NCBI GenBank assembly: GCA_035084275.1
Contig: CM068745.1
Location: forward strand, 48,484,001 to 48,548,000
DNA length: 64,000 nucleotides
Origin: Hydrolagus colliei
Taxonomy: Eukaryota
Direction: 5' to 3'
Below, piece by piece: positions 2,926 through 56,321 of the stretch (position 1 is the first letter of the stretch; every line of letters starts with the position of its first letter). The translations under genes and the position numbers were made by a program. Under the pieces are notes generated by a model, which made no database searches, had not been told where the DNA came from, and saw only the letters and a list, made by a program, of their open reading frames with translations.

Positions 2926-3827
2926 AACAGGCAAAATAACAGCATTTAAAAATATCAATAGACCCCTACTTCATCAAAAGAAATGCTAACTACTGTACTT
3001 TTTTTAATTTAAAAAACATTCTAACAGCAGTGACGGAGGATGTGCAACAAAAAATAACAGTAAAAAGAGAGCCACATACAATGAATATTATTCTATTTTA
3101 CCGAGAATTACATCACGCACATGGTTACCAAGAAAATGGACCTTTGTACTTTGACATCCAGAAAACCATTCACAACTATATACCAACATTACATCTTCAC
3201 GTTTACATCTGCCACCCATAGCCTTTGTGAGTGAGGTTGGAAATTATTGCTAATTAATGTTGAATTGAAGAGTTGTTCATTTCTGTGGATATGTCCACTG
3301 GGAAAATGATTGTCAGTTGATACTAACGTCATATGGAATATTAACAGGTGTCAGGATTTGCAGTATTTCTCATCTCGCCGTCAAGACTAAACGCAAACTC
3401 CTAAAGGGCAAAGGATAGTATTTAAAAATTTTCCACCGAGTTCCAAGAATTTGCAATTTGATTCAAATTGATTGCTTCTGTATTCAGAATGCATCGTGTC
3501 TTCAAGAATGAGATTTGAGCAGTTTTTATAGAAGTGAGCATCCTCAGAGAGGAAGTTAAATAGATGTAACTAATGTCTTATTTACGATGTAATATACGAT
3601 CAGTTTTAAACTTGTATTTAGTAGGGTCCGGCGATGTAGCGATATATCGCTATCGCATTTCAAAAATATCGATATATCGAAAAATCGATACATTGAGGTA
3701 AAAAATCGGGATGCGAGCACACTGAATTACAAGACCCAGAATGCTCATCTCTATACACAATGCACAGACCGAGGTGCAAAGCCGCCATATTGTATTCATA
3801 GTCCTCGAATACAATATACATGTATGC

Positions 3828-4255
3828 AAGGGGTGGGGGTGGGGGGGGGTGAGAGACGGCTGGGTGGGGGGGGGTGAGGGGGAGAGAGACGGCTGGGGGG
3901 AGGGGGAGAGAGATGGCTGTAGGGGGGGAGAGGGAGAGAGGGTGAGAGAGACGACTGGGGGGAGGGGGAGAGAGATGGCTGGGGGGAGGGGGAGATAGAC
4001 GGCTTGGGGGAAGGGGAGAGAGACGGCTGGGGGGAGGGGGAGAGAGACAGCTGGGGGGGGGGAGAGAGACAGCTGGGGGGAGGGGGAGAGAGACGGCTGT
4101 GGGGGTGGGAGAGAGACGGCTGGGGGGGCAGGGAGAGAGAGATGGCGGGGGAGGGGAGGGAGAAAGAGACGGCTGGGGGGGTGGTGGGGGAGAGAGACGA
4201 CGGGGGTGGGGGGGTGCGAGAGAGGGACGGCGGTGGGGGGGGGGAGAGATGGGGT
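3828..4255 (+). repeat. G-rich minisatellite (about 22-24 bp unit GGGGAGAGAGACGGCTGGGGGG) inside the hAT MITE
   Basis: Unit repeated many times with variable G-run length; strong G-quadruplex potential; source of the spurious Pro/Ser and Gly/Glu ORFs. Confidence 0.92.
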
Positions 4256-4410
4256 GGATGTGATAATATACAGATCGATAGAGATGGGGGGGATGTGAGA
4301 GAGGAGAGAGGGAGAGAGACACAGAGACACACAGACAGAAAAACACAGAGATGGAGAGAGTGAGAGACACAAAAAGAGAAAGATATTTACCTTCTGAGGA
4401 GATAGGCCCC

Positions 4411-4490
4411 AAATGCGCACTCACCCGGAATGCGCACGCACCCTGAATGCGCGCGCACTCCGAATGCGCACGCCGCGTGCGCATGCGCAA
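4411..4490. promoter_or_regulatory. Array of NRF1-like motifs within the MITE
   Basis: Four AATGCGC(A/G)C repeats followed by a perfect TGCGCATGCGCA palindrome at 4478-4489; function not shown. Confidence 0.5.
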
Positions 4491-4744
4491 TACGAAAAAA
4501 CTGAAAATATCGATATTTCGGTATATCTTGATATGAGCCCATCGATATATCTAAATCGGAAAATTTCCATATCGACGGACCCTAGTATTTAGACATACTG
4601 TATGACTCACACATTTTTTAAATGAAATTTGCCTAACATCAACTAGTCTGTCCTTTGGTTTTGGAAGTCTAAAAATTGCAAACATAACCAAAAAACTAAC
4701 TAGAATTATTTGCAAACATGAAAATCAACAGAAGGTAATGATTA

Positions 4745-4955
4745 TGCAAATTCTTGTAGCTCAGTGGTTGGAGCACTCACCTTACAAGCAATAGACCTGG
4801 GTTCATTTCCAGGCAGGGTGAAATCTTGGACAAGTTTCCTTATTCCACATGCCTGATAATAATCCCTCAAAAAATAATTAGTCACGACTGTTTGCCGAAC
4901 ACAACTGTGTGGATTTGGCTGCTGCATTTCGCTTACATACACACACACAATTAAC
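4745..4955 (+). mobile_element. tRNA/CORE/Deu SINE, 3' end interrupted by a minus-strand L2 fragment (about 4960-5130)
   Basis: tagctcagtggttggagcactcaccttacaag head, ttggacaagtttccttattccacatgcct, then the Deu-like block. Confidence 0.85.
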
Positions 4956-5134
4956 AATGTTGTGGGGGAAGTGGCAAGAGGAAGGTCTTCGGGAAGAACC
5001 TGAAAAGGGGGAGAGAAGGAGCAAAGCAAAGGGATTGAGGGAGAGTGTTTCAGAGTTTGGGGCCATAATGGCTGAAAGCTTACTATGGTAGGGCTGAGGG
5101 TGTGATCCTGCAGCACATAAGAGAGCAAGTACCT

Positions 5135-5490
5135 ACTTGGGTCAGCTGGTACGACTCTCGTTACTAAATCAGAAGATTGTAGCTCAAATCTTATGCCAGT
5201 CCAATCATTCAGTCATCCTTTAAATCATACATTAAAGGAAGGTCCCATCTACTTGTTCATGAGAACTCATGACAATATTCAAAACTAGAAGATCAATTTC
5301 CTGGCCAAATATCCTTCAATTAAGTGTTCATTCTTCTCCTATGTTTGTGCAAGATTGCTATATATAAGATTGATGATCAAATTCACCTAAAAAATAGTGT
5401 CAGTGCACTCTACAATTAATTATCTGAAGCTCCTTGAGACATTTTGATATGATTTGGCTCTATGTCAAATGCCAAGATATTATTATTATT
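5135..5490 (+). mobile_element. Older, diverged Deu-type SINE
   Basis: Degenerate tRNA head (ttgggtcagctggtacgactctcg...cagaagattgtagctcaaatc) and L2-type tail ending in (TTA)n. Confidence 0.55.
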
Positions 5491-5649
5491 TGGGTAATAG
5501 TTAATGGAATCCAAAGTTATTTTTCAACGTTTTAATGACAATACTAAAGCCTTGGAATAAGTCTTTGGACAGTCCATTATGAATCGAAACTGAACACCGA
5601 TCTACAACAACATTTATACCGCAGTTTCCATGATACACACTCATCTTAT

Positions 5650-6370
5650 TTGACCCTCAACTGTGATTGCTACCCCACATGCATGCCGTGATCCGCTCTG
5701 CCTTTCCTCACCTTTGCAGCATTACCCGGCTTCACCACTGCCCTTCCCATCTGGCTAGCAAAACCCTCATCCGCACATTTATTATATCTAGGCTCAACTA
5801 TGCCAACTCCCTGCTTGTTGGCCTTCCTAAGAATAATCTTCCCTCCAAAATATACAGATCATCCAGAACACTGCAGCTTGTATCCCACCCCACATCTTGG
5901 GTTCCTTGATCCTATCACCCCCTCTTCTGGCTGCCTCCGCTGGCTCCATTTCCCCAAAAGGATACAGTTCAAAACCATCATCCTCACCTTTAAAGCATCT
6001 CATCGCTTTGTTCCTTCCTACCTATGTGACTTCTAATGCTATCAACCTGTCAGCTCTCTCCGCTCAAAGTACCCTCCACATATCCTGCCTGACCATGCAA
6101 TAATTGGTGGTTGGGCCTACAGCCTCTCTGCCATCACCCTTTGAAACTCCATCCCATAGTCTCTTCACCTCCCTCCATCCCTTGCCTGCTTCAAGGCATA
6201 CCTCTAGGCTCTCCTGTTCAACCACATCTTCAGCCACCTTCCTACCCCTACCCTCCCTGCCCTCTACCCATCCTGATTCCAAGTACCTATTGGGTCCAAA
6301 TCCCAGATTATTCTGTGCTTTGGAACATGCTAAAGACATGAAAGGGGCTCTACAAATGTAATGTTTTATT
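5650..6370 (+). mobile_element. Decayed L2 LINE 3' fragment
   Basis: Translates to KTLIRTFIISRLNYANSLLVGLP and LRWLHFPKRIQFK (L2 ORF2 C-terminus); tail gtaatgttttattgttg. Confidence 0.88.
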
Positions 6371-6589
6371 GTTGATATGAAAATGAATTTTGCATCTTCA
6401 AGATGACTTTTGTAGGTTGTTGCCAGCAAAAATTATTGCCAAACTTATTTACTGTAAAATATGCAGTATATAACTGAATGCAAATCACGGAGAGAAGTTT
6501 CTGATAAGATTGCTTTAAGAAAACTTTTTGAAGAAAACAAGATTGAGGATTATGCAATCCAGACTGTTAAAATTATAGGAAGAATAGAT

Positions 6590-6880
6590 GGTAATAGTAA
6601 TCCTTACATTTGATATGTCTCCTTACTACATCTTTGAGATGCCTAAAAGTGCTTCACAAAATATGCTATAAAGTGAATTAACCAATTTATTTACTTTTTT
6701 AAGGAATTATTATCCCTGGAAAAGCAATTCACTAATCAAATAATAACCAAGTTCCTAGTTACTGCCAGCTAAACAAAGAGGTGTGAAGTAAGGAAATTTG
6801 CCCAATATTCACCCTGCCGGGAATTGTACACAGGATTCTTACTTGCAAAGCGATGGCTCAAACCACTGAGCTGTAGGATT
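6590..6880 (-). mobile_element. tRNA/CORE/Deu SINE (long variant)
   Basis: Reverse complement of the tail, the internal aaccaagttcctagttactgc segment and the head (accactgagctgtagga). Confidence 0.8.
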
Positions 6881-7639
6881 CCACATGATGAAGATACAGC
6901 AGGTAATTTTTTAACCATAGACTGTGAGATTAGAGAATGGGATGGATTTAACAATAAATATCTCAAGTAGGATTTTGGCTAGTAAGAATTGTTTTCCCAT
7001 TGATTAGTGAAGAAGCAGAGGCCATGGTAGATACAAGATACAAGAGTTAAGTCTTGCCAGATCCTAGAGCAGGGAAATCTGGCCATTCTAGACAATAGTT
7101 TGCCTTTAGAAAAAGGCTTGTGTATAGAGACAAACTACTGTAGTTGTGAAGGAATGCTATGCCTCCTCAACTTTTAACCTCAAGAAGGCATGATAGGCAA
7201 ACCGCTTATCTTTAAGTCCCAGAATTGTAAACTATGACAACGATCATAAAACATATTTTATTTCATTTATCCCTTGCAGATATTTTGCTGAGATTTAGAA
7301 AATTGTTGGAACATATCATTAAGAAAGTCTATTTTATTTTCAACTGTAGCAGTGATTGTGTATTATGAAGCTAAACAAAGCAATCTTTCCAAAATACTGT
7401 AACATATGATTTATCCATGCACATGCGTTTTTATGATGCAGCACAGCAGTTTCATTTATAGTTACTTATGCATGTATTTCACTAAGTGCAGTTCAGGCAA
7501 ATGACAACATGAGCTGTTTGGTTTTGTGGTCTAGAACTGAGAAGTGGTTGAGATCCTTCCTATTAGATGCCAATAGTCAGGTTTCCAGGGCAGCTGCTGA
7601 GTTCTGCTCACAGGCACCAAATACATCCCCAAGAAAAAC

Positions 7640-8180
7640 AACTTACATTGTTATTATGCACCTCACTCAGGGTACCGTGCCAGAGTGTTTGACAGTGGCA
7701 AAGCATGACTCTGAGCTGGGGGAAGTGGGAGGTGACCATAGGCACGGTCAATGTAGAACTTTCTCAAGCAGGCATGACTTGATGGGGAGGGAAGGGGTGA
7801 GAGGGAGGGACAGAATAAGAATATTCCAGAGTTTTGGCGCTTGGTGGCTGAAAACACGGTCGCCAATGGTGGAATGGAGGGCACGAGAGACATGCCGAAG
7901 GTTGGAGCTATTTGAGCAGAGCAGCAGTTTGTGGGGAGGGAGGTAAGCAGGTTGGAGAGGTAGAGAGATGACAGGGCATGAATGGATTTGGAAGCGAATA
8001 TGAAGATCGTGAAATCGATCCATTCAAGAGCTAGTGGAACCTGACTAGAATGGTGTGATAGGGGTACAGATATCATTAGGGTGAGTACGTAGGGGGCACA
8101 GTTTTGGATCAGCTTGATCCTGCGCATGGATGGGCTAAGGAGACTGGTGAAAAGGGCACTTGAAAAGTCGAGTCAGGAGC
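7640..8180 (-). mobile_element. Decayed L2 LINE 3' fragment
   Basis: Minus-strand IKLIQNCA and STIGDRVFSHQAPKLWN. Confidence 0.85.
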
Positions 8181-8185
8181 TGACA

Positions 8186-8245
8186 AGCGCTCTGAGACGC
8201 CATCCGGTGTGGAGGGCGCTATATAAATCGAAGTTGTTGTTGTTG
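8186..8245 (+). mobile_element. Tail-only L2-type insertion (gcgctctgagacgccatccggtgtggagggcgctatataaatc..(TTG)n)
   Basis: Near-identical copies at about 49216-49271, 57240-57300 (-) and 61895-61957. Confidence 0.8.
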
Positions 8246-8689
8246 ACAAATGCATGGATGAATGCAAAAGCACATTAGCTTCAGGAACTCCATCCACAAT
8301 CTCAGCCATTCTCCTCTCCTCCCTCTCCCATTTGGTTGTGTAGCTACTACATTTTGAGCAAACATTTTTAGTTTGGAAGTTCTGTTTGTTTTGAGATGCC
8401 GTTATTTAAGAATGTAAAAGCAACAAATTGAAAATGTCAAAATAATTCCACCATCATTTGTCTAACTACTTTGGGATATGACAGAACATTTGAAAGTACA
8501 GTACAACACAGTCTGACTTGTCAACCCTCAATACTGCTTTCAATTGATGTACCAATTGATGCAATATCCTCTATGTATGTATCTGACAGTGTGAAGTAAC
8601 CGGTACAATACAAAACGGTATTGTCTAAATAAAAACGAACAGGTTGGTATATTTAGAATTTAATTTGGGTAGAACATGGAATTTGCTCA

Positions 8690-9770
8690 ATGTTCGTGGA
8701 CCTGCCCTTGCCTGCTACAAATCTTTCCTCTCCCACTGTCTCTACTTTGTCACCACTAGCGGCTTTTCCTCTAGCCCTTGCACCATCACGTGTGACGTCC
8801 CCGAGGGCTCTGTCATTGGCCCTATCCTTTTCAACCTCTATATGCTCCCCTTTGGTGACATTATCCGCAGACATGGGATCAACATGGGGTCAACTTCCCT
8901 ATGTATGCGGATGACACCCAACTATATCTTTCTGCCTCAACCCATGATTTCAGGACAACCGCTGTCCCGTTGGACTGCCATTTCGCTTGCACCAGTGTCT
9001 TCACACCTTAAGCACTGGCAGCATCACCTCCATGGATGCACACTCATCTTACCAAGCCAGCCAAGAAACTATGTGTCTTGTCGATCCTCAACTATCTTTT
9101 CTCCCCCACATTCATGCCATGATCCGCTCCGCCTTCCCTCACCTCCGTAACATTGCCTAATTCTGCCACTACCTCACCCTTCAGGCTGGTGAATCTCTTA
9201 TTCATGCCTCCATCACATCCATGCTCGACTATGCCAAGGCCCTGCTTGTACAGCTCCCCAATTCCTCCCTCCATAGGTTGCAGATCATCCAGAACTCTGC
9301 AGCCTGTGTCCTCCATCTCACCAAGTTCAGCGACTGTATGAACCCCATTCTTGCCTGACTCCACTGGCTTCCCAACACTTAGTGGATTCAATTCAAGATA
9401 CTGGTTCTCACTTTTAAAGCCATCCATGGCCTTGTCCCATCTACCTTTTGACCTCCTAATCCCTTACCAACATTCTCCGCTGACCCGCAAAGCAATCTCC
9501 TGCCTGCTCCAAGAATCCTGACCCACCCGCCCCACCATCGTCGTGTGAAACTTCAGCCACACTGATCACTGTAGAGGGATTGCGGATTGGAATTCCCTGT
9601 ACTTCAAGACCCTCCTCTTCGACCCTGCCATCAGTCACCCCCCCATCCCTATGTTTTCTCCACACTCCTCTAACTCCGATCCAAAACACTGACTGCACAG
9701 CACCTTCGAACGTCATCCCAACATGAAACTCACCTTACAAATGCACAGTACTTTTGTTTGTTTTGTTGCT
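8690..9770 (+). mobile_element. Decayed L2 LINE, RT core to 3' tail
   Basis: VPEGSVIGPILFNLYMLP and atgtatgcggatgacacccaacta (YADDTQL); frameshifted. Confidence 0.92.
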
Positions 9771-10424
9771 GCATTAATCTGGTCTACATTACAGACAATT
9801 TCTGAAACAAATTATCTTTAAATTATTTGTTCGATATGTCATTTTAATGTTTGGTATATAAACGACCATATACTGTAGATGGTTTTCTGACAAAATCATC
9901 CCTTGATTGTCACCAAAAGTTTACCATTGTGTTGTGTTACTAAAGAAATAGATCTGAATGGTAAACTAACTGATAATCAAACTCTGTTTGTTATGCTGAG
10001 TTAGGACAGCAAATTGCAGTATAAACTTTAACTTTTGGCTCATGTTAGAATTACCATGTTTTCAACATAAAAATCTGTCCAGCTCAGTTGTATCATGGTT
10101 TGCTATTATGCCACAGGCAGGTCATATAAATATCCGCTGACCTCTTACATGCACAGTCTTGCTAAAGCAGTTAACTAGTCGTCTGCTGAAAATTTGTGAA
10201 TTCCTCAATGTCTTTGTTCTTTATTTCCTTTTCATTTGGCGACACATGTGGATGCAGCAGACCATATTGTTACAGCTTAATGAAATGTGAAACAGAAAAA
10301 AAAACATTTATATACAATTAAATCATATTGGACTTAATGGCACTCTGCTGTACAACAGCTGTATGAATGTTGACCTTGAATGGTGCATGATGGTGGTTGT
10401 TGCCTCAAAGAGCCAATTGCAATA

Positions 10425-10994
10425 CAGGTATCCCTCCCCAACCACGGGGGATACGTTCCTGTAAACCTCCGTGGTTGGTAATATTGTGGTTGGAAAATGC
10501 AGGGCCCTATGGCAAACATGGAGATAGGGGGAGTACGTTTGCGGAGGGTGGAGGTGTGAGGGTGAGACTGGGTGGGTGACATGGAGGATTGGGGGTGTGG
10601 GTGACACGGAGGGTGGGGGTGGTGAGTGACACAGAGGGTTGGGGGTGTGAGTGTCACGGAGGGTTGGTGGGTGACATGGGGGGGTGAGTGACACAGAGAG
10701 TGGGGGTGGTGTGGGTGACACAGAGGGCGGGGAGGGTGAGTGACATGGAGGGTTGGGGGGATGGGTGACACGGAGGGTGGTGGGGAGGTGGGTGATACGG
10801 AGGGTGGAGGAGAGAAATCAACGGAGATTTACCTTAATCCTAAAAGAGAAGCGACATCTCGCTGGTTGATTGCGACATATTAAATTGTGTATGCGCAAAA
10901 TGCAAAACGAGGTTTGCGAGGGTTGTCGCATTTAGCAAACCTTGGATGCATGCGTTTCGTGGTTAATGAGGCCGCGGTTGGGGCAGGATACCTG
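10425..10994. mobile_element. Non-autonomous Tc1/mariner (Tigger/pogo-like) MITE, 570 bp
   Basis: TIRs CAGGTATCCCTCCCCAACCACGG / CCGCGGTTGGGGCAGGATACCTG; TA TSD at 10423-10424 and 10995-10996. Confidence 0.92.
10543..10812 (+). repeat. G-rich minisatellite (about 22-25 bp unit GGGTGACACGGAGGGTGGGG) inside the Tigger-like MITE
   Basis: About ten imperfect units; G-quadruplex-prone. Confidence 0.9.
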
Positions 10995-39465: not shown

Positions 39466-40124
39466 TCACTGTAATATTATTTTATTTTTGTAATAAAAAC
39501 ACAATATCTCTTACACTTTCAAATCATGCACATCTCTAGGTCTCAGCTTCCTAATCAACAACTGCCAGAACCTCTGTGTGGCAGCTGCAGGTACAGATTT
39601 TCATGTTGTTGTTTTTTTGCTACATTGCTCAATAATTCATGGCCATATTAAAGTTTGAACATCTTAAGAGATAATATTTTCTGCTTCCTAGGGCAAAGCT
39701 TGTGAAGTAATGTTCAAGGAATGTAATTGATCATGCTTATGTACAGCAAGCACAAAAAAACACTCACTCTTTGCGACCAAATTTCTAGAAACGAGGAAAT
39801 TGATCCAAACCATGCATCCTTTCATCAAAACTGTCATCAGGACTGGAGTAATATTTTTTCCAGTTGTTTGAAATTTCATGTTGTATTTTTTCTCTCCTTC
39901 TTTTGATCTTCCTTGTTGTTTCAGGTAAAATACACAATTCTGTTCTTTTCCCATCTGCCCACTATCATCACTAACATTAATTTTCCGTGTTTGACGCTTC
40001 AGAATGTTATTTTCCATACTCTTTGGAAACAGGTCATGCTGATATTGTGCAGGAAGCAGCAAACCACATTTAATAAGCCCACGTCCTTAGGATCTAGTGC
40101 AAAATATCTGAACACATATTTTGC

Positions 40125-42943
40125 TGTGCAAGCCTCTCCTCGTAGTCATAGCGGTGGTGTGGCCCTCATCTCAAAGACATCTCTCGCCCTATCCCCCTAC
40201 TCCTCCGGTTCCTTCCCACCTTTTGAAGAGCTCACCCTCTCTCAATCCTCCCACAATTCCTTCAAAATCCTTTTAGTATATCGCCCCCTTAAACCCTCCC
40301 CCACTTTCATTTCAGATTTCTCCTCACTTTTAACCTCACTCCGTGCCTCCTCTGATCGCCTTATCATTCTTGGCGACTTCAACCTCCACTTCATCCCCTC
40401 CTGCTCCACCTCCTCTGAATTTTCCTCTTTGCTTTCGTCTTTTAACTTTTCCCTTCACATTCACACAGCCACCCACACCCACGGCAATCCGCTCAATCTG
40501 GTGATCACCCGAGGCCTCAACGTCTCTGGCGTAACCATCATCAACAAGGCCATTTCAGACCACTTTTTCATTTCTCTCAACACCTCTATCCCTCCCCCCT
40601 CCACCTCCAAACCCACCATCTTCTACCAGCCCTGGAAGAAGATTCCCCCACAAACCTTCACCTCTGCTCTCAAAACCCCCGACCTCCTCCCCCTGTGGCA
40701 CTCCTCCTGTACCGACCCATCCGTCGCCTCCACCACCCTCCATAACACCCTCTCCACTACCATCGACACCCTGGCTCCCCTCACCTCCAGAACTGTCTCC
40801 CACTCCCGATCATCACCGTGGTACACAACTCACCTCCGTTCACTCAAAAGCCAAGTGAGAGCAGCTGAAGGCACCTGGCTCAAATCTGGCCTCACGGTCC
40901 ACCGGCAAATCTGCTTGGACCGCATCAAATTTTACCGCTCCGCCCTAGCCACTGCCAAATCAGCCTTCTACTTCAGGATAATACTGGAAGCGAAGGACAA
41001 CCACCGCCTCCTCTTCGCCACCACCAACCAGCTCCTCCGACCCCCCCCCCACCCCCCCACCGTCTCGCTTCGCAGATCCTCTCCTCAAACGCACGCTGCG
41101 AAGAGATGTTGGACTTCCTCGAGTCCAAAATAGAGAGAATCCGCTCTGCGGTTTCCTCCCCCCACCTCTCCTACACCTCCGCCCCTCCATCCGCTATTCC
41201 AACCCCCACCCACCCCACCTTTCATACTTTCATCCCCACCTCCCCGTCTTCAGTCACAAAAATAATCACTTCCATGAAACCCACCACGTGTTCACTGGAC
41301 CCCATCCCCACTCCCTTCCTCCGCACCCAACTCCACCTCCTGGCCCCACTCATCTCTGACACCATCAACCTTTCCCTCTCCTCAGGCACCGTCCCTACCT
41401 CCCTTAAAACAGCCACCATCACCCCTATCCTGAAACCCCCCCCTCCCTTGATGCGTCACAGCCATCAAGCTACTGACCTATCTCTAACCTCCCTTTCCTT
41501 TCTAAGGTCCTTGAAAGAGTGGTTGCCTCCCAGCTCCGCTCCTTCCTTTCAACTCACTCACTCCTTGAACCCCTCCAATCAGGTTTCTGCCCTGCTCACA
41601 GCATGGAAACTGCCCTGGTCAAGGTTACATACGACATCCTAACCGCCTGCGACCAGGGCTCCCTCTGCCTCCTCGTCCTCCTTGACCTGTCTGCTGTGTT
41701 TGACACGGTCGATCACACCATCCTCCTCCAACGTCTTTCCTCCCACCTCAACCTTCAAGGCACCATCCTTGACTGGTTCCATTCCTACCTGACCCACCGC
41801 CAACATTTTGTATCTTCTAACGGTTTTTCCTAAAACCACCGCACAGTTTCTCATGGCATTCCCCAGGGCTCTGTCCTTGGCCCCCTCCTTTTCACCATTT
41901 ACACGCTCCCTCTGGGCGATGTCATCTGCAAACATGGGGTAAATTTCCACATGTATGCGGACGACACCCAGTTGTACCTTTCTGCCTCATCCCTCAACCC
42001 CCAGACCATCGATGTTCTGACAGCATGTCTGTCCGACATCGAGTCCTGGACGAGGGACAACTTCCTTCAATTGAACGTGAGCAAGACCCAGGCCCTCCTG
42101 ATTGACTCAAGCCAGCGCTTCCACACATCGGGCACTGCCGGCCTCAACATCCAAAGCTGTACTCTCCACCTCACAAAGCCAGTCAGGAACCTCGGCATCA
42201 AGTTCAACCATAAACTCTCCTTCCTCCCCCACATCCGTGCCTTGACCGGCACCGCTTATTTCCACCTGCGCAACATTGCCAGGCTCCGCAACTATCTCAT
42301 CCCCCAAGCTGCCGAAACACTTGTCAACGCGTACATCACCTCACAGCTGGACTACGGAAAGTCTCTCCTCATCGGCCTCCCCAGAGCTCCTCCATTCACA
42401 GGCTGCAGGTCATCCAAAACTCTGCAGCCCATGTAATTTCCCGTACCCGCCTCCGTGACCACATAACCCCCACCCTCGCCCGTCTCCACTGGCTCCCCAT
42501 CCCCCAGAGGATTGAGTTCAAGATCCTTGTCCTCCTTTTCAAGGCCTTACACGGCCTTTCCCCGCCCTATCTATCTGATCTACTCTCCCCCTATAAGCGC
42601 ACCCGGACCCTCCACTCAGCAGGACTTGGCTTGCTCCAAGCCTCCCGCCCGAACTGCCCCATCATCGGAGGCCGGGCCTTCAGTTTCTCCGCTCCCACCC
42701 TATGGAATTCCATCCCCCAATCCCTCCGCCTTGTTTCCTCCCTTTCCTCTTTCAAGGCCGGTTTGAAGACTTTCCTTTTCGACCGTGCCTTCTGTTCCCC
42801 CCTAATATTTCGACCTCCCCCACGTTTTTTACCCCTTCCCAAACACTCCCCTCCCAGCTCGGGTCACACGCCTCCTGTGCAGTGCCTTTGGACGTCCTCC
42901 CGACGTGAAAGGCGCTCTATAAGTCTAATTTGTTGATGTTGTT
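40125..42943 (+). mobile_element. L2 LINE, nearly full ORF2 pseudogene (APE endonuclease + RT), 5'-truncated
   Basis: SGGVALI, ILGDFN, SDHF (APE); LDPIPT, QSGF...[42 protein letters not shown] (RT); several frameshifts and stops; tail cgacgtgaaaggcgctctataag..(TTG)n. Confidence 0.97.
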
Positions 42944-43189: not shown

Positions 43190-43480
43190 GTGGGGGGAGA
43201 AACTCCTATGGCCTGAAATGGCTGAAATCAATGTTGAGGCCAGATGACTGTAGTGTCCCCAGTAGAAAGATGAGGTGCTGTTCCTCAAGCTTTCGCTGTG
43301 AGTCACTGGAACAGCGCAGGAGACCATGGATTGAAAGATCAGCCTCTGAATGTGAGCGCAAGTTGAAATGGAGGGAGACTGGAAGATCAGGGTTGACCTT
43401 CCGTACAGAGCGAAGATGCTCTGCAAATCGGTCTCCCAATCTGCGCTTAGGCTCCCCAATGTAGAGGAGACCACACCGTG
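43190..43480 (-). mobile_element. Penelope-like element GIY-YIG endonuclease fragment (inverted)
   Basis: Minus-strand RCGLLYIGEPKRRLGDRFAEHLRSV...VSLHFN...RKLEEQHLIFLLGTLQSSGLNIDF. Confidence 0.92.
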
Positions 43481-43524
43481 AGGAGACGTTCAGGACCGTG
43501 GAACCTGAAATTTGTCAAAATGTC

Positions 43525-44860
43525 GGAGGCCAAACGCCAGCTCTCTGCCAACTCCGCCTATCTTCCACTCAACCATGACCCCACAGCTCAACACCAAGCC
43601 ACCATCACTAAGGTAATCAATAACCTCATCTCCACTGGTGATATTCCTCCTACTGCGTCCAACCTCATAGTCACCCAACCCCGCACAGCCCGCCTATACT
43701 TTCTCCCCAAGATTCATAAACAGAACTGTCCTGGCAGATCCATTGTCTCAGCCTGGTTCTGTCCCACTGAATTAATTTAATCATATCTAGACTCCATTTT
43801 TGCTCCCCTCGTCCAATCTCTACCCACCTATATCCGTGACTCGAAAGGACGCCCTCTGACATTTTGACAATTTCCCGTTCCACGGTCCTGAACATCTCCT
43901 GTTCACAATGGACGTTCAGTCCCTCTACACCACCAACCCCCACAAGGCTGGCCTGCAGGCCCTCTGTTTTCACCTCGATAAACGAGAAGATAAATCTCCA
44001 TTCACCACCACCCTCCTCTGCATGGCTGAACTTGTTCTGACAGTGAACAACTTCACTTTTATCTCCAACCACTTCCTCCAGATAAAAGGCATCGCTATGG
44101 GAACCCACATGGGTCCCAGCTACACCTGCCTGTTTGTTGGCCACCTGGAACACTCCTTGTTCTGGTCCTTCTCAGGCCCGCTCCCCGACCTTTTCCTCAG
44201 GTACATTGATGACTGTGTCGAGGCTGCCTCCTGCTCTCGCAGTGAGCTAGAGGCATTTGTAAACTTTGCCTCCACTTCCAACCCTCCATAAAATTTACGT
44301 GGACCATCTCTGACACTTCGCTTCCCTTCCTCAACTTCACCATCTCTACATCAGGCACCTGCCTGTCCACAGACATATTTTACAAATCCACTAACTCCCA
44401 TAGCTACCTTCACTACACCTCATCCCACCCGGCCTCTTGCAAAGATGCAATCCCCTTTTCCCAGTTCCTCTGCCTCCACCGCATCTGCTCTGACGATGCA
44501 ACATTTCATACCAGAGCAACTGAGATGTCTGCATTTTTCTTCGACCGAGGATTCCCATCACCCATGGTAGCAAAGGCCCTTAACCGTGTCCATCCAATTT
44601 CCCACACCTCAGTTCTCACCCCTTCCCCCCATCGCAGATTCGTGATAGTATTCCCTTGGTCCTCACTTACCACCCTACCAGCCTCACTATTCAATATATC
44701 ATCCGTAGAAAGTTCCGTCACCTGCCACATGACCCATCCACCAAGGATATATTTCCCTCCCCTCCCCTCTCCACATTCCGAAGGGACAGTTCTCTCGGGG
44801 ATTCCGGGGTCCACTCCGCTGTCAGCACCACCAGCTGCTCTCTTTCCTCTGGCACAGTTG
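43525..44860 (+). mobile_element. Penelope-like element reverse transcriptase pseudogene
   Basis: LYFLPKIHK..PGRSIVS, MDVQSLYT, QIKGIAMGTHMGPSY, FLRYIDD; stops and frameshifts. Confidence 0.95.
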
Positions 44861-45109
44861 AGGGATTGCACAGGAGCTAGAGGTTAGATTTAAGATGGGT
44901 GGGGCCTAAGGGGGATGGGGGTGGCAAGATGACCAAATATGTGGTCAAAAAAGGAAGGTCTTGAGATGGACTTTTAAGGTGGCAAGGTTAGGTAGAAGGT
45001 GAAGGAACTCTGGGTGGAGTACTGATGAATGAGAAATTAAATATGGGGAGGTTAGGTTATTTCACGTAGTGTAGTTAGGATATGGAACATCTTGCCGGGA
45101 GCAATGATC

Positions 45110-54410: not shown

Positions 54411-54632
54411 AAAATTGCGGGAGCACTCAGCAGGTCAGACAGCATCTATGGAGAAAGAAAAACTAAGTCAATGTTTCGGGTCCATGACCTTTGCCAGTTT
54501 TGATGAAGGGTTGTGGACCCGAAACATTGACTCACTTTTCCTTTCTCCATAGATGCTGCCTGACCTGCTGAGTGTTCCCAGCTATTCCTGTTTTTGCTAC
54601 AGATTTCCAGCATCTGCAGTATTTTGTGTTTT
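54411..54632. mobile_element. Palindromic Penelope-tail derivative with a minimal hammerhead-like core
   Basis: Arms at about 54419-54492 and 54503-54579 are inverted repeats; core TTGATGA-AGGGT..ACCC-GAAAC at 54500-54525; ends cagatttccagcatctgcagta. Confidence 0.85.
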
Positions 54633-56243: not shown

Positions 56244-56321
56244 CCCTTGTAAAAAAGTACCATGATAATGGTGGTAGTACCATGGTAGTACCACCATAAC
56301 CATGGTACTTTTTTACAAGGG
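56244..56321. mobile_element. 78-bp palindromic mini-MITE with 2-bp TSD (CMC/EnSpm-like)
   Basis: Perfect 21-bp TIRs CCCTTGTAAAAAAGTACCATG / CATGGTACTTTTTTACAAGGG; CA on both sides (56242-56243, 56322-56323). Confidence 0.88.

What the first reader, a model, noticed from the sequence alone, without database searches (positions are those of the whole stretch)
3622..10994. Two MITEs from different superfamilies share the same internal promoter / splice-donor / G4-minisatellite cassette
Seen in the sequence: the hAT MITE (3622-4584, 8-bp TSD) and the Tigger-like MITE (10425-10994, TA TSD) have unrelated TIRs and different repeat units. Yet both have the order TIR, G-rich minisatellite on +, the 9-mer ATTTACCTT (4385-4393 and 10827-10835, which reads AAG|GTAAAT, a splice donor on -), an NRF1-like motif (perfect TGCGCATGCGCA at 4478-4489; decayed TGTGTATGCGCA at 10886-10897), and TIR. 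Known: TGCGCATGCGCA is the NRF1 consensus. Inference: read on the minus strand each is a portable promoter, short first exon, donor and pyrimidine-rich intron. This could be a relic of the transposase 5' end or a convergent or exchanged module that can start transcripts and splice into host exons.
Basis: partly seen in the sequence, partly recalled or inferred. Interest (0 to 1): 0.7.

Follow-up and report, generated by a model that had tools for sequence, protein, structure and literature searches.

The report
Hybrid jumping gene, no shared cassette
The two small jumping elements do not share a cassette: one is a hybrid, present in thousands of copies, in which the ends of one transposon type enclose half of a third type, the other is a scrambled remnant of its own parent, and their promoter-plus-splice-site look is likely a by-product whose use in transcription is untested.

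Summary
Both MITEs are real, high-copy and correctly delimited, but the shared cassette does not hold. A shared 9-mer arises in 21-37% of shuffles, and the hAT family mostly differs at its ninth base (27 of 30 copies). The Tigger-like family has no NRF1 word (0 of 30). Coding partners show separate origins. Element 2's donor-like word is identical over 17 nt to the 3' UTR of its own pogo/Tigger partner, its repeat unit matches that partner's C-terminal codons, and the candidate 5' UTR donor is missing. Element 1's NRF1 end is the 3' end of its hAT partner, so the layout is antisense to that transposase. Element 1's interior (3720-4408: YY1-like word, minisatellite, donor) is the left half of a separate P-element MITE family, starting exactly at the P terminus. 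Element 1 is thus a hAT/P chimera, with about 7,400 junction matches against about 170 for the donor family. Exchange between superfamilies did happen, but not between these two elements. Transcription and splicing are untested. Filler-carrying hAT elements are known (Anolis hobo). An earlier scan note describes what looks like element 1's family elsewhere in this genome.

The parts
3614..3621 (+). 8-bp target-site duplication, left copy (right copy 4585-4592)
   Evidence: 23 of 30 family copies have an 8-bp TSD with at least 7 of 8 matches
3622..3719 (+). hAT left arm: TIR, GATAT subterminal repeats and one GCGC repeat unit; the 5' end of the hAT transposase partner
   Evidence: matches the start of L131/L134 elements; partner has zf-BED and Dimer_Tnp_hAT
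3720..4408 (+). left half of a P-element MITE nested inside the hAT ends, starting at the P terminus (3' end of the P transposase element)
   Evidence: 79-84% identity to P-MITE copies on both sides of the minisatellite; arm aligns with three coding P copies; left junction in 24 of 30, right junction in 28 of 30 copies
3781..3791 (+). YY1-like word (name recalled), part of the P 3' arm
   Evidence: 18 of 30 element-1 copies; present in P copies and P-MITEs
3819..3827 (+). second donor-like word pointing into the minisatellite from the left; intact in the family, mutated in the window copy
   Evidence: 17 of 30 copies; seen in P-MITEs, not in coding P copies
3831..4384 (+). G-rich 24-bp minisatellite followed by an AG/AC tract; from the P-MITE
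   Evidence: tract beside the donor similar to P-MITE copies at p<=0.05 in 26 of 26
4385..4393 (-). donor-like word (boundary 4391/4390); GAG|GTAAAT in the family; from the P-MITE centre, ultimate origin unknown
   Evidence: module in 26 of 30 P-MITE loci; not found in four coding P loci
4409..4477 (+). 17-bp GCGC repeat array of the hAT arm
   Evidence: related repeats lie at both ends of the hAT partner in the same orientation
4478..4489 (.). NRF1 word, inherited from the 3' end of the hAT partner
   Evidence: word cloned as the FMR1 NRF1 site in PMC3820735 (passage read)
4490..4584 (+). hAT right arm: GATAT repeats and TIR; 3' end of the transposase partner
   Evidence: 79% identity over 159 nt to the end of L131
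10425..10542 (-). element 2 left arm; 3' end of the pogo/Tigger partner
   Evidence: 83-86% identity to L173 and L179
10572..10807 (+). G-rich 25-bp minisatellite; unit matches C-terminal codons of the Tigger-type transposase (antisense)
   Evidence: 83-91% over 22-29 nt to L171
10827..10843 (-). donor-like word AAG|GTAAAT with 8 further bases; copied from the partner's 3' UTR, 42-57 nt after the inferred stop
   Evidence: 17 of 17 identical to L173; word in 9 of 22 partner loci, GT intact in 8; in 23 of 30 element-2 copies
10846..10870 (-). the apparent first exon: a piece of transposase C-terminal coding sequence
   Evidence: 92% over 26 nt to L171, 88% to L173
10880..10994 (-). element 2 right arm with TIR; 5' end of the Tigger-type gene; holds the 12-mer at 10886-10897 that is not an NRF1 word in the family
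   Evidence: 83% over 112 nt to L179

Best explanation
The two MITEs do not share a cassette by descent: element 1 is a chimera of hAT ends around the left half of a P-element MITE, element 2 is a rearranged derivative of its own pogo/Tigger family, and the look-alike order of parts is likely a by-product of these separate rearrangements. Shown: the source of each arm, of both donor-like words (to the P-MITE centre and to the Tigger 3' UTR) and of the NRF1 word. Inferred for element 1: a P-MITE inserted into the GCGC repeats of a short hAT MITE, a deletion then removed the P-MITE's right half, and the product was spread by the hAT transposase through its intact ends. Inferred for element 2: deletions and template switches during gap repair joined the 5' arm to C-terminal and 3' UTR pieces, and one C-terminal piece expanded into the minisatellite. 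Both likely move as passive passengers; any transcription or splicing from the donors would be incidental.
For: hAT partner with the same TIRs and a TSD, gene on +, NRF1 word at its 3' end; element 1's interior has no match to it. P-MITE family: both ends found in 19 of 30 loci, 8-bp TSD in 13 of those 19; its ends are those of coding P copies with Tnp_P_element and TNP-like_GBD domains and TSDs of 8/8, 7/8, 7/8. The shared block starts exactly at the P terminus inside element 1. Junction word counts: 7,445 for the chimera (21 nt, <=1 mismatch), 172 for the P-MITE (27 nt, <=1 mismatch), controls 0. A 385-bp hAT MITE without the insert exists, with TSD. Tigger partner: gene runs from element 2's right end to its left end in the 4 loci where an element-2 end flanked a DDE match; 3' UTR word and C-terminal pieces match; a separate candidate 5' UTR intron lies before the ATG, 51-72 nt long, donor context found in 10 of 22 loci. 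Chance level of the shared word.
Against: The 55 nt beside the donor resemble element 1's at p<=0.05 in 4 of 23 element-2 copies (about 1 expected; window copy p=0.23; low complexity, related copies), so a short exchanged AG tract is not excluded. The donor 8-mer is the least changed class in element 1 (1 of 240 cells against 1-5% for other non-CpG classes), though only 8 columns. The 3' UTR word survives in 23 of 30 heavily rearranged element-2 copies. The short hAT MITE has its own antisense donor-like word before the GCGC repeats, which element 1 lost and replaced in the same orientation. The origin of the P-MITE centre was not found, and no intermediate with a whole P-MITE inside hAT ends was seen, so the direction P-to-hAT rests on parsimony.
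Confidence: 0.8

Rival explanations
1. Separate origins, but selected convergence: MITEs that put a CpG-rich arm before a splice donor and a pyrimidine-rich tract are favoured, because they start spliced transcripts or because U1 binding makes intronic copies harmless.
For: The chimera outnumbers its P-MITE donor about 40-fold by junction counts (patterns differ in length). Donor words are retained in both families. A third Tigger family has TIR, NRF1 word, CAG|GTAAAT, acceptor and ATG at its true 5' end (NRF1 word with <=2 mismatches in 9 of 15 loci examined), so such words can belong to a transposase promoter here.
Against: Donor-like words of equal score occur at 0.35 per kb per strand (score 8) and 2.4 per kb (score 7) across the window (crude recalled consensus). 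CpGs in the GCGC arm decay (168 of 1079 cells; NRF1 word 16 of 180), as expected for methylated DNA. Another MITE has its donor-like word on the purine strand, pointing away from its tract. Copy number may simply reflect the activity of the hAT transposase.
Confidence: 0.12
2. Elements 1 and 2 exchanged the donor and its adjacent AG tract directly or through the P-MITE.
For: A 64-nt alignment at 75% ending in the donor between element-1 copies and L048; 4 of 23 copies at p<=0.05.
Against: The element-2 word is 17 of 17 identical to its own partner's 3' UTR on the exon side; exon sides of the two donors differ; the match is low complexity; element 2 has no dust-filtered match to P or hAT partners.
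Confidence: 0.05
3. Both layouts are relics of the first exon and intron of the cognate transposase gene.
For: Element 2's minus strand is the transposase sense strand and starts at its 5' end. The P-MITE donor is in P-sense orientation and aligns loosely with a P exon end.
Against: hAT end is 3' and antisense; element 2's word is from the 3' UTR and the 5' donor is found in only 5 of 30 copies and not in the window copy; the P alignment is at chance level (14% of shuffles).
Confidence: 0.03

Closest known systems
Non-autonomous hobo_AC (hAT) families of Anolis carolinensis (Novick et al., PMC3014272; abstract and passages read)
   Same: hAT ends with 8-bp TSDs carrying filler DNA that contains elements of other superfamilies, which are thereby amplified; passengers outnumber coding copies.
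   Different: Here the filler is half of a P-element MITE beginning exactly at its terminus, which points to a nested insertion; that paper favours capture of genomic DNA holding old fragments, and lists no P elements.
MITEs carrying tandem repeats: Xmix/Xstir and miDNA4 in Xenopus (seen as cited in review PMC9659126, passages read)
   Same: A minisatellite born or carried inside a MITE and spread with it.
   Different: In element 2 the unit traces to transposase codons; in element 1 it was inherited from another superfamily.
Zebrafish Pdre P-like elements (bioRxiv 10.1101/2024.03.22.586318, passages read); BuT5, a P-associated MITE of Drosophila (PMC3698922, search listing only)
   Same: Vertebrate P-type element with TIRs, 8-bp TSDs and shorter non-coding relatives.
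   Different: Different TIR sequence; the MITE here has non-P filler with opposed minisatellites, and half of it was taken over by a hAT.
Transposon-borne splice sites used in transposase capture (Cosby et al., bioRxiv 10.1101/2020.05.07.082677, passages read)
   Same: DNA transposons carry splice sites by their ORF; the Tigger partner has a candidate acceptor just before its ATG.
   Different: Those are mostly acceptors (8 of 9) with shown use; the words here are donor-like, in passengers, with no use shown.
Xenopus hAT-N16, Harbinger-N12A, Kolobok-N2 MITEs at liver open chromatin (PMC12676858, passages read)
   Same: MITEs of different superfamilies with internal repeats and factor motifs (NRF named for Harbinger-N12A).
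   Different: Backed by ATAC-seq and read as independent domestication of a few copies; no such data here.

Membership tests
hAT non-autonomous element (element 1) | 8-bp TSD | tested here: met
   window copy exact; 23 of 30 copies
hAT non-autonomous element (element 1) | YARNG-type termini shared with a hAT transposase element | tested here: met
   TAGGG ends; same TIRs on L131 with zf-BED and Dimer_Tnp_hAT; YARNG stated in PMC3014272
hAT non-autonomous element (element 1) | mobilised by that transposase | not testable with these tools
   inferred from shared ends
P-element MITE (source of 3720-4408) | 8-bp TSD and TIRs | tested here: met
   13 of 19 two-ended copies among 30 loci
P-element MITE (source of 3720-4408) | ends shared with elements encoding a P transposase | tested here: met
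   5' end at 4 loci, 3' end at 3; Tnp_P_element and TNP-like_GBD
P-element MITE (source of 3720-4408) | THAP domain in the partner | not tested
   a THAP-like exon was recognised by eye from memory output; no profile scan
pogo superfamily MITE (element 2) | TA TSD and TIRs shared with a DDE_1/CENP-B-type transposase element | tested here: met
   TA TSD and DD29-56D range per PMC7386202; 32-residue spacing counted by eye
Tigger family within pogo (element 2) | transposase groups with Tigger in a tree | not tested
   no reference set; name rests on recalled resemblance
Shared promoter/donor cassette across both elements | homologous non-repetitive sequence | tested here: not met
Shared promoter/donor cassette across both elements | NRF1 word in both family consensuses | tested here: not met
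   19 of 30 versus 0 of 30
Shared promoter/donor cassette across both elements | transcription starts and spliced reads | not testable with these tools
   see Tried and rejected

The most novel reading that the evidence does not exclude
Passenger transposons of three superfamilies in this genome converge, by independent rearrangement, on a CpG-rich arm followed by a splice donor and a pyrimidine-rich minisatellite. The hAT/P chimera became about 40 times commoner than its P parent because joining the P donor to the hAT NRF1 arm built a working portable first exon, seeding thousands of potential transcript starts.
Probability: 0.1. Interest if true: 0.65.

Novelty: new variant of a known kind. 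Interest (0 to 1): 0.33.

Why it matters
It removes a claimed cross-superfamily cassette and replaces it with a traceable case of how such layouts arise. A P-element passenger was half-swallowed by a hAT passenger and multiplied to thousands of copies, joining a donor from one superfamily to an NRF1 word from another. It also documents a mobile P family with TSD-flanked coding copies and MITEs in this genome, which earlier scan notes call chimaera-like (not tested here). Searches listed no paper on a hAT/P chimera or on this family; they cover an open-licence library only, and Repbase/Dfam could not be checked. If RNA showed use of the donor, about 7,400 copies would be a large ready-made test of de novo first-exon birth.

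Tried and rejected
This is no evidence on expression. Direct alignment of the two window elements: only G-rich tracts align. Early idea that element 2's donor was a 5' UTR acceptor fused to the 3' UTR (note): dropped, the pyrimidine piece matches C-terminal codons. Early idea that element 1's donor arose from the hAT arm or hAT codons: dropped once the P-MITE was found. The ZNF143/THAP11-like word in element 1 (22 of 30 copies; name recalled) is a variant of the P terminal repeat, and the aligned P and P-MITE copies read differently there. Search for the P-MITE centre in four coding P loci: chance-level scores only. Search for a 3' UTR donor in other pogo-type elements: none with score 8 or more in the last 480 nt of 11 elements (some orientations uncertain), so it is not general. 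Survey of purine-rich tracts in 835 kb of fetched DNA: 40 tracts outside the two families, many redundant, 6 flagged with a donor-like word downstream, 2 of them element-1 or P-MITE copies; no general rule. Paper searches; one search did not retrieve the maize Ds splicing work, which I only recall. No host gene was identified: the ORF list shows only repeat-like frames by eye, and neighbours were not examined. Supplements were not read.
Full report
Observation. Element 1 (3622-4584) has an exact 8-bp TSD and element 2 (10425-10994) a TA TSD. Both are large families in G000, a 1.0-Gb eukaryotic genome: first-look candidates 4930 and 2614 (not copy numbers). I took the 30 best-matching copies of each, so the samples lean towards the window copies.

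The shared words do not survive at family level. The 9-mer ends in C in 27 of 30 element-1 copies and in T in 2; 23 of 30 element-2 copies keep their version. A shared word of 9 letters arises in 21% (right arms) or 37% (both arms) of 2000 shuffles, and one of 8 letters in 61% or 85%. The NRF1 pattern (recalled; the exact word is the FMR1 site used in PMC3820735, passage read) is in 19 of 30 element-1 copies and 0 of 30 element-2 copies. In element 2 the commonest 12-mer there is CGCGGATGCGCA (8 of 30), so the window's version is CpG decay of a different word. The window copy also lacks 57 bp just before it. Copies of the two families align only through low-complexity tracts.

Element 2 and its partner. 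A DDE_1 search and fetched flanks gave coding elements with element 2's ends; a DNA search gave 22 loci of that family. Two long frames carry DDE_1 and HTH_Tnp_Tc5, one also CENP-B_N. But the partner's candidate 5' UTR donor is another word, found in 10 of 22 loci (altered at the GT in 2), with a 51-72 nt candidate intron before the ATG. It is in 5 of 30 MITE copies and not in the window copy. That word is in 9 of 22 partner loci, GT intact in 8, 42-57 nt after the inferred stop in the 8 measured. In two other loci the same region reads as an AATAAA context instead. The apparent exon and the minisatellite unit match C-terminal codons. Element 2 is therefore a scrambled derivative of its own family.

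Element 1 and its hAT partner. A Dimer_Tnp_hAT search led to 4.8-kb elements with element 1's TIRs and TSDs (L131, L134), encoding zf-BED and the hAT dimerisation domain. Element 1's right end, with the NRF1 word, is the 3' end of that gene, so the proposed transcript would be antisense to it. GCGC repeats lie at both ends of the partner in one orientation. A 385-bp MITE made of these arms alone exists with a TSD and has its own antisense donor-like word. Element 1's interior has no match to the partner.

The interior comes from a third family. A survey of purine-rich tracts found the same interior in an element without hAT ends. A search gave 30 loci (six share one flank and are probably duplicates). 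The donor module is in 26 of 30 and continues into other sequence in 24. Both ends were found in 19, and 13 of these have an 8-bp TSD. These ends are those of P-element copies: the 5' end at four loci and the 3' end at three, with TSDs of 8/8, 7/8 and 7/8, and Tnp_P_element and TNP-like_GBD domains. Window 3720-4408 is the left half of this P-MITE, starting at the P terminus. The left junction is in 24 of 30 and the right junction in 28 of 30 element-1 copies, as expected from one founding event. Junction words match 7,445 times for the chimera and 172 times for the P-MITE (patterns of 21 and 27 nt, one mismatch, reversed controls 0). The YY1-like word is part of the P 3' arm and the ZNF143-like word is a variant of the P terminal repeat (names recalled). 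The P-MITE centre with the donor was not found in four coding P loci.

Mechanism. Shown: the source of each part. Inferred: a P-MITE inserted in the GCGC repeats of a short hAT MITE, its right half was deleted, and the hAT transposase spread the product; element 2 arose by deletion and template switching within its own family. So donor and NRF1 word were brought together secondarily in element 1, from two superfamilies, and donor and 5' arm secondarily in element 2, from two ends of one gene. I put 0.8 on this being a by-product.

Against this reading. The donor 8-mer is the most constant class in element 1 (1 of 240 cells). The AG tract beside the donor resembles element 1's at p<=0.05 in 4 of 23 element-2 copies, against 26 of 26 for the P-MITE. 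A third pogo-type family has TIR, NRF1 word, CAG|GTAAAT, acceptor and ATG at its real 5' end, so the layout can be genuine in this genome. CpG decay is lower in the NRF1 word (16 of 180) and the terminal arm (45 of 540) than in the 17-bp repeats (168 of 1079), but all decay. No intermediate was seen, so the direction of capture rests on parsimony.

Comparison. Closest is the Anolis hobo case of hAT passengers carrying pieces of other superfamilies (PMC3014272, abstract and passages). MITE-borne tandem repeats are known from Xenopus (PMC9659126, passages). Vertebrate P-like elements with TIRs and 8-bp TSDs are known from zebrafish (10.1101/2024.03.22.586318, passages). Transposon-borne splice sites are mostly acceptors before the ORF (10.1101/2020.05.07.082677, passages). 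PMC12676858 (passages), PMC7386202 (passages) and PMC10901741 (passages; Tigger as intronic gene traps, nothing on a 3' UTR donor in the passages shown) were also consulted. Earlier scan note e1-9268270 describes a hAT MITE with the same three motifs elsewhere in this genome; I had noted the motifs before reading it, and whether it is the same family was not checked.

Verdict. The finding as titled is not supported. What is there is a high-copy hAT/P chimera and an ordinary Tigger-type derivative: a new variant of a known kind, interest 0.33. Function as a portable first exon is untested.

Noticed in passing
   Followed up: partly
L170:851-2623 (-), G000:C1 near 146.92 Mb: Open 591-codon frame of element 2's transposase family with all three domains, GC-rich upstream DNA and no terminal repeats seen: a candidate domesticated gene.
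   Followed up: partly
L173, L174, L169, L178 (3' UTR of the Tigger-type partner): The donor-like word lies 42-57 nt after the inferred stop, mostly inside the recalled 50-55 nt limit for escaping nonsense-mediated decay; it could let the mRNA splice into host 3' exons. Not seen in 11 other pogo-type elements.
   Followed up: partly
L131:8318 and 9187 (as fetched): The hAT partner has an inner, older right TIR and an outer one 870 bp further, with its own purine-rich minisatellite and no donor between them: it grew by taking a new end.
   Followed up: no
L191-L220, L232: P-MITE target sites have a palindromic bias (G at 1, C at 8; 13 TSDs) and several copies lie in GC-rich DNA; one coding P copy sits beside a CpG-rich stretch with a gene-start-like ATG and donor.
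   Followed up: no
L192, L201, L204, L208, L218: Five P-MITE copies share the same right flank, so the P-MITE is also carried inside yet another repeat.
   Followed up: no
L137 (-) 710-1340, also L067, L068, L129, L164: A TA-flanked MITE with a purine-rich tract followed by AAG|GTAAGC on the same strand, the opposite arrangement to the finding.
   Followed up: no
L062, L063, L073, L079, L080: 1.2-kb hAT derivatives that join the short MITE's left arm to the last transposase exon at a short shared word.
   Followed up: no
window 39907-42936 (+) and 43451-44887 (+): Broken frames resembling an L2-type LINE and a Penelope-type element (by eye, names recalled, no profile scan).
   Followed up: no
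window 54419-54579 and 56244-56321: Two hairpins with 74-nt and 39-nt arms, 89% and 92% complementary.
   Followed up: no
G000:C6:48548690-48549091 (+), 0.7 kb past the window end: A DDE_1 match just outside the window.
   Followed up: no
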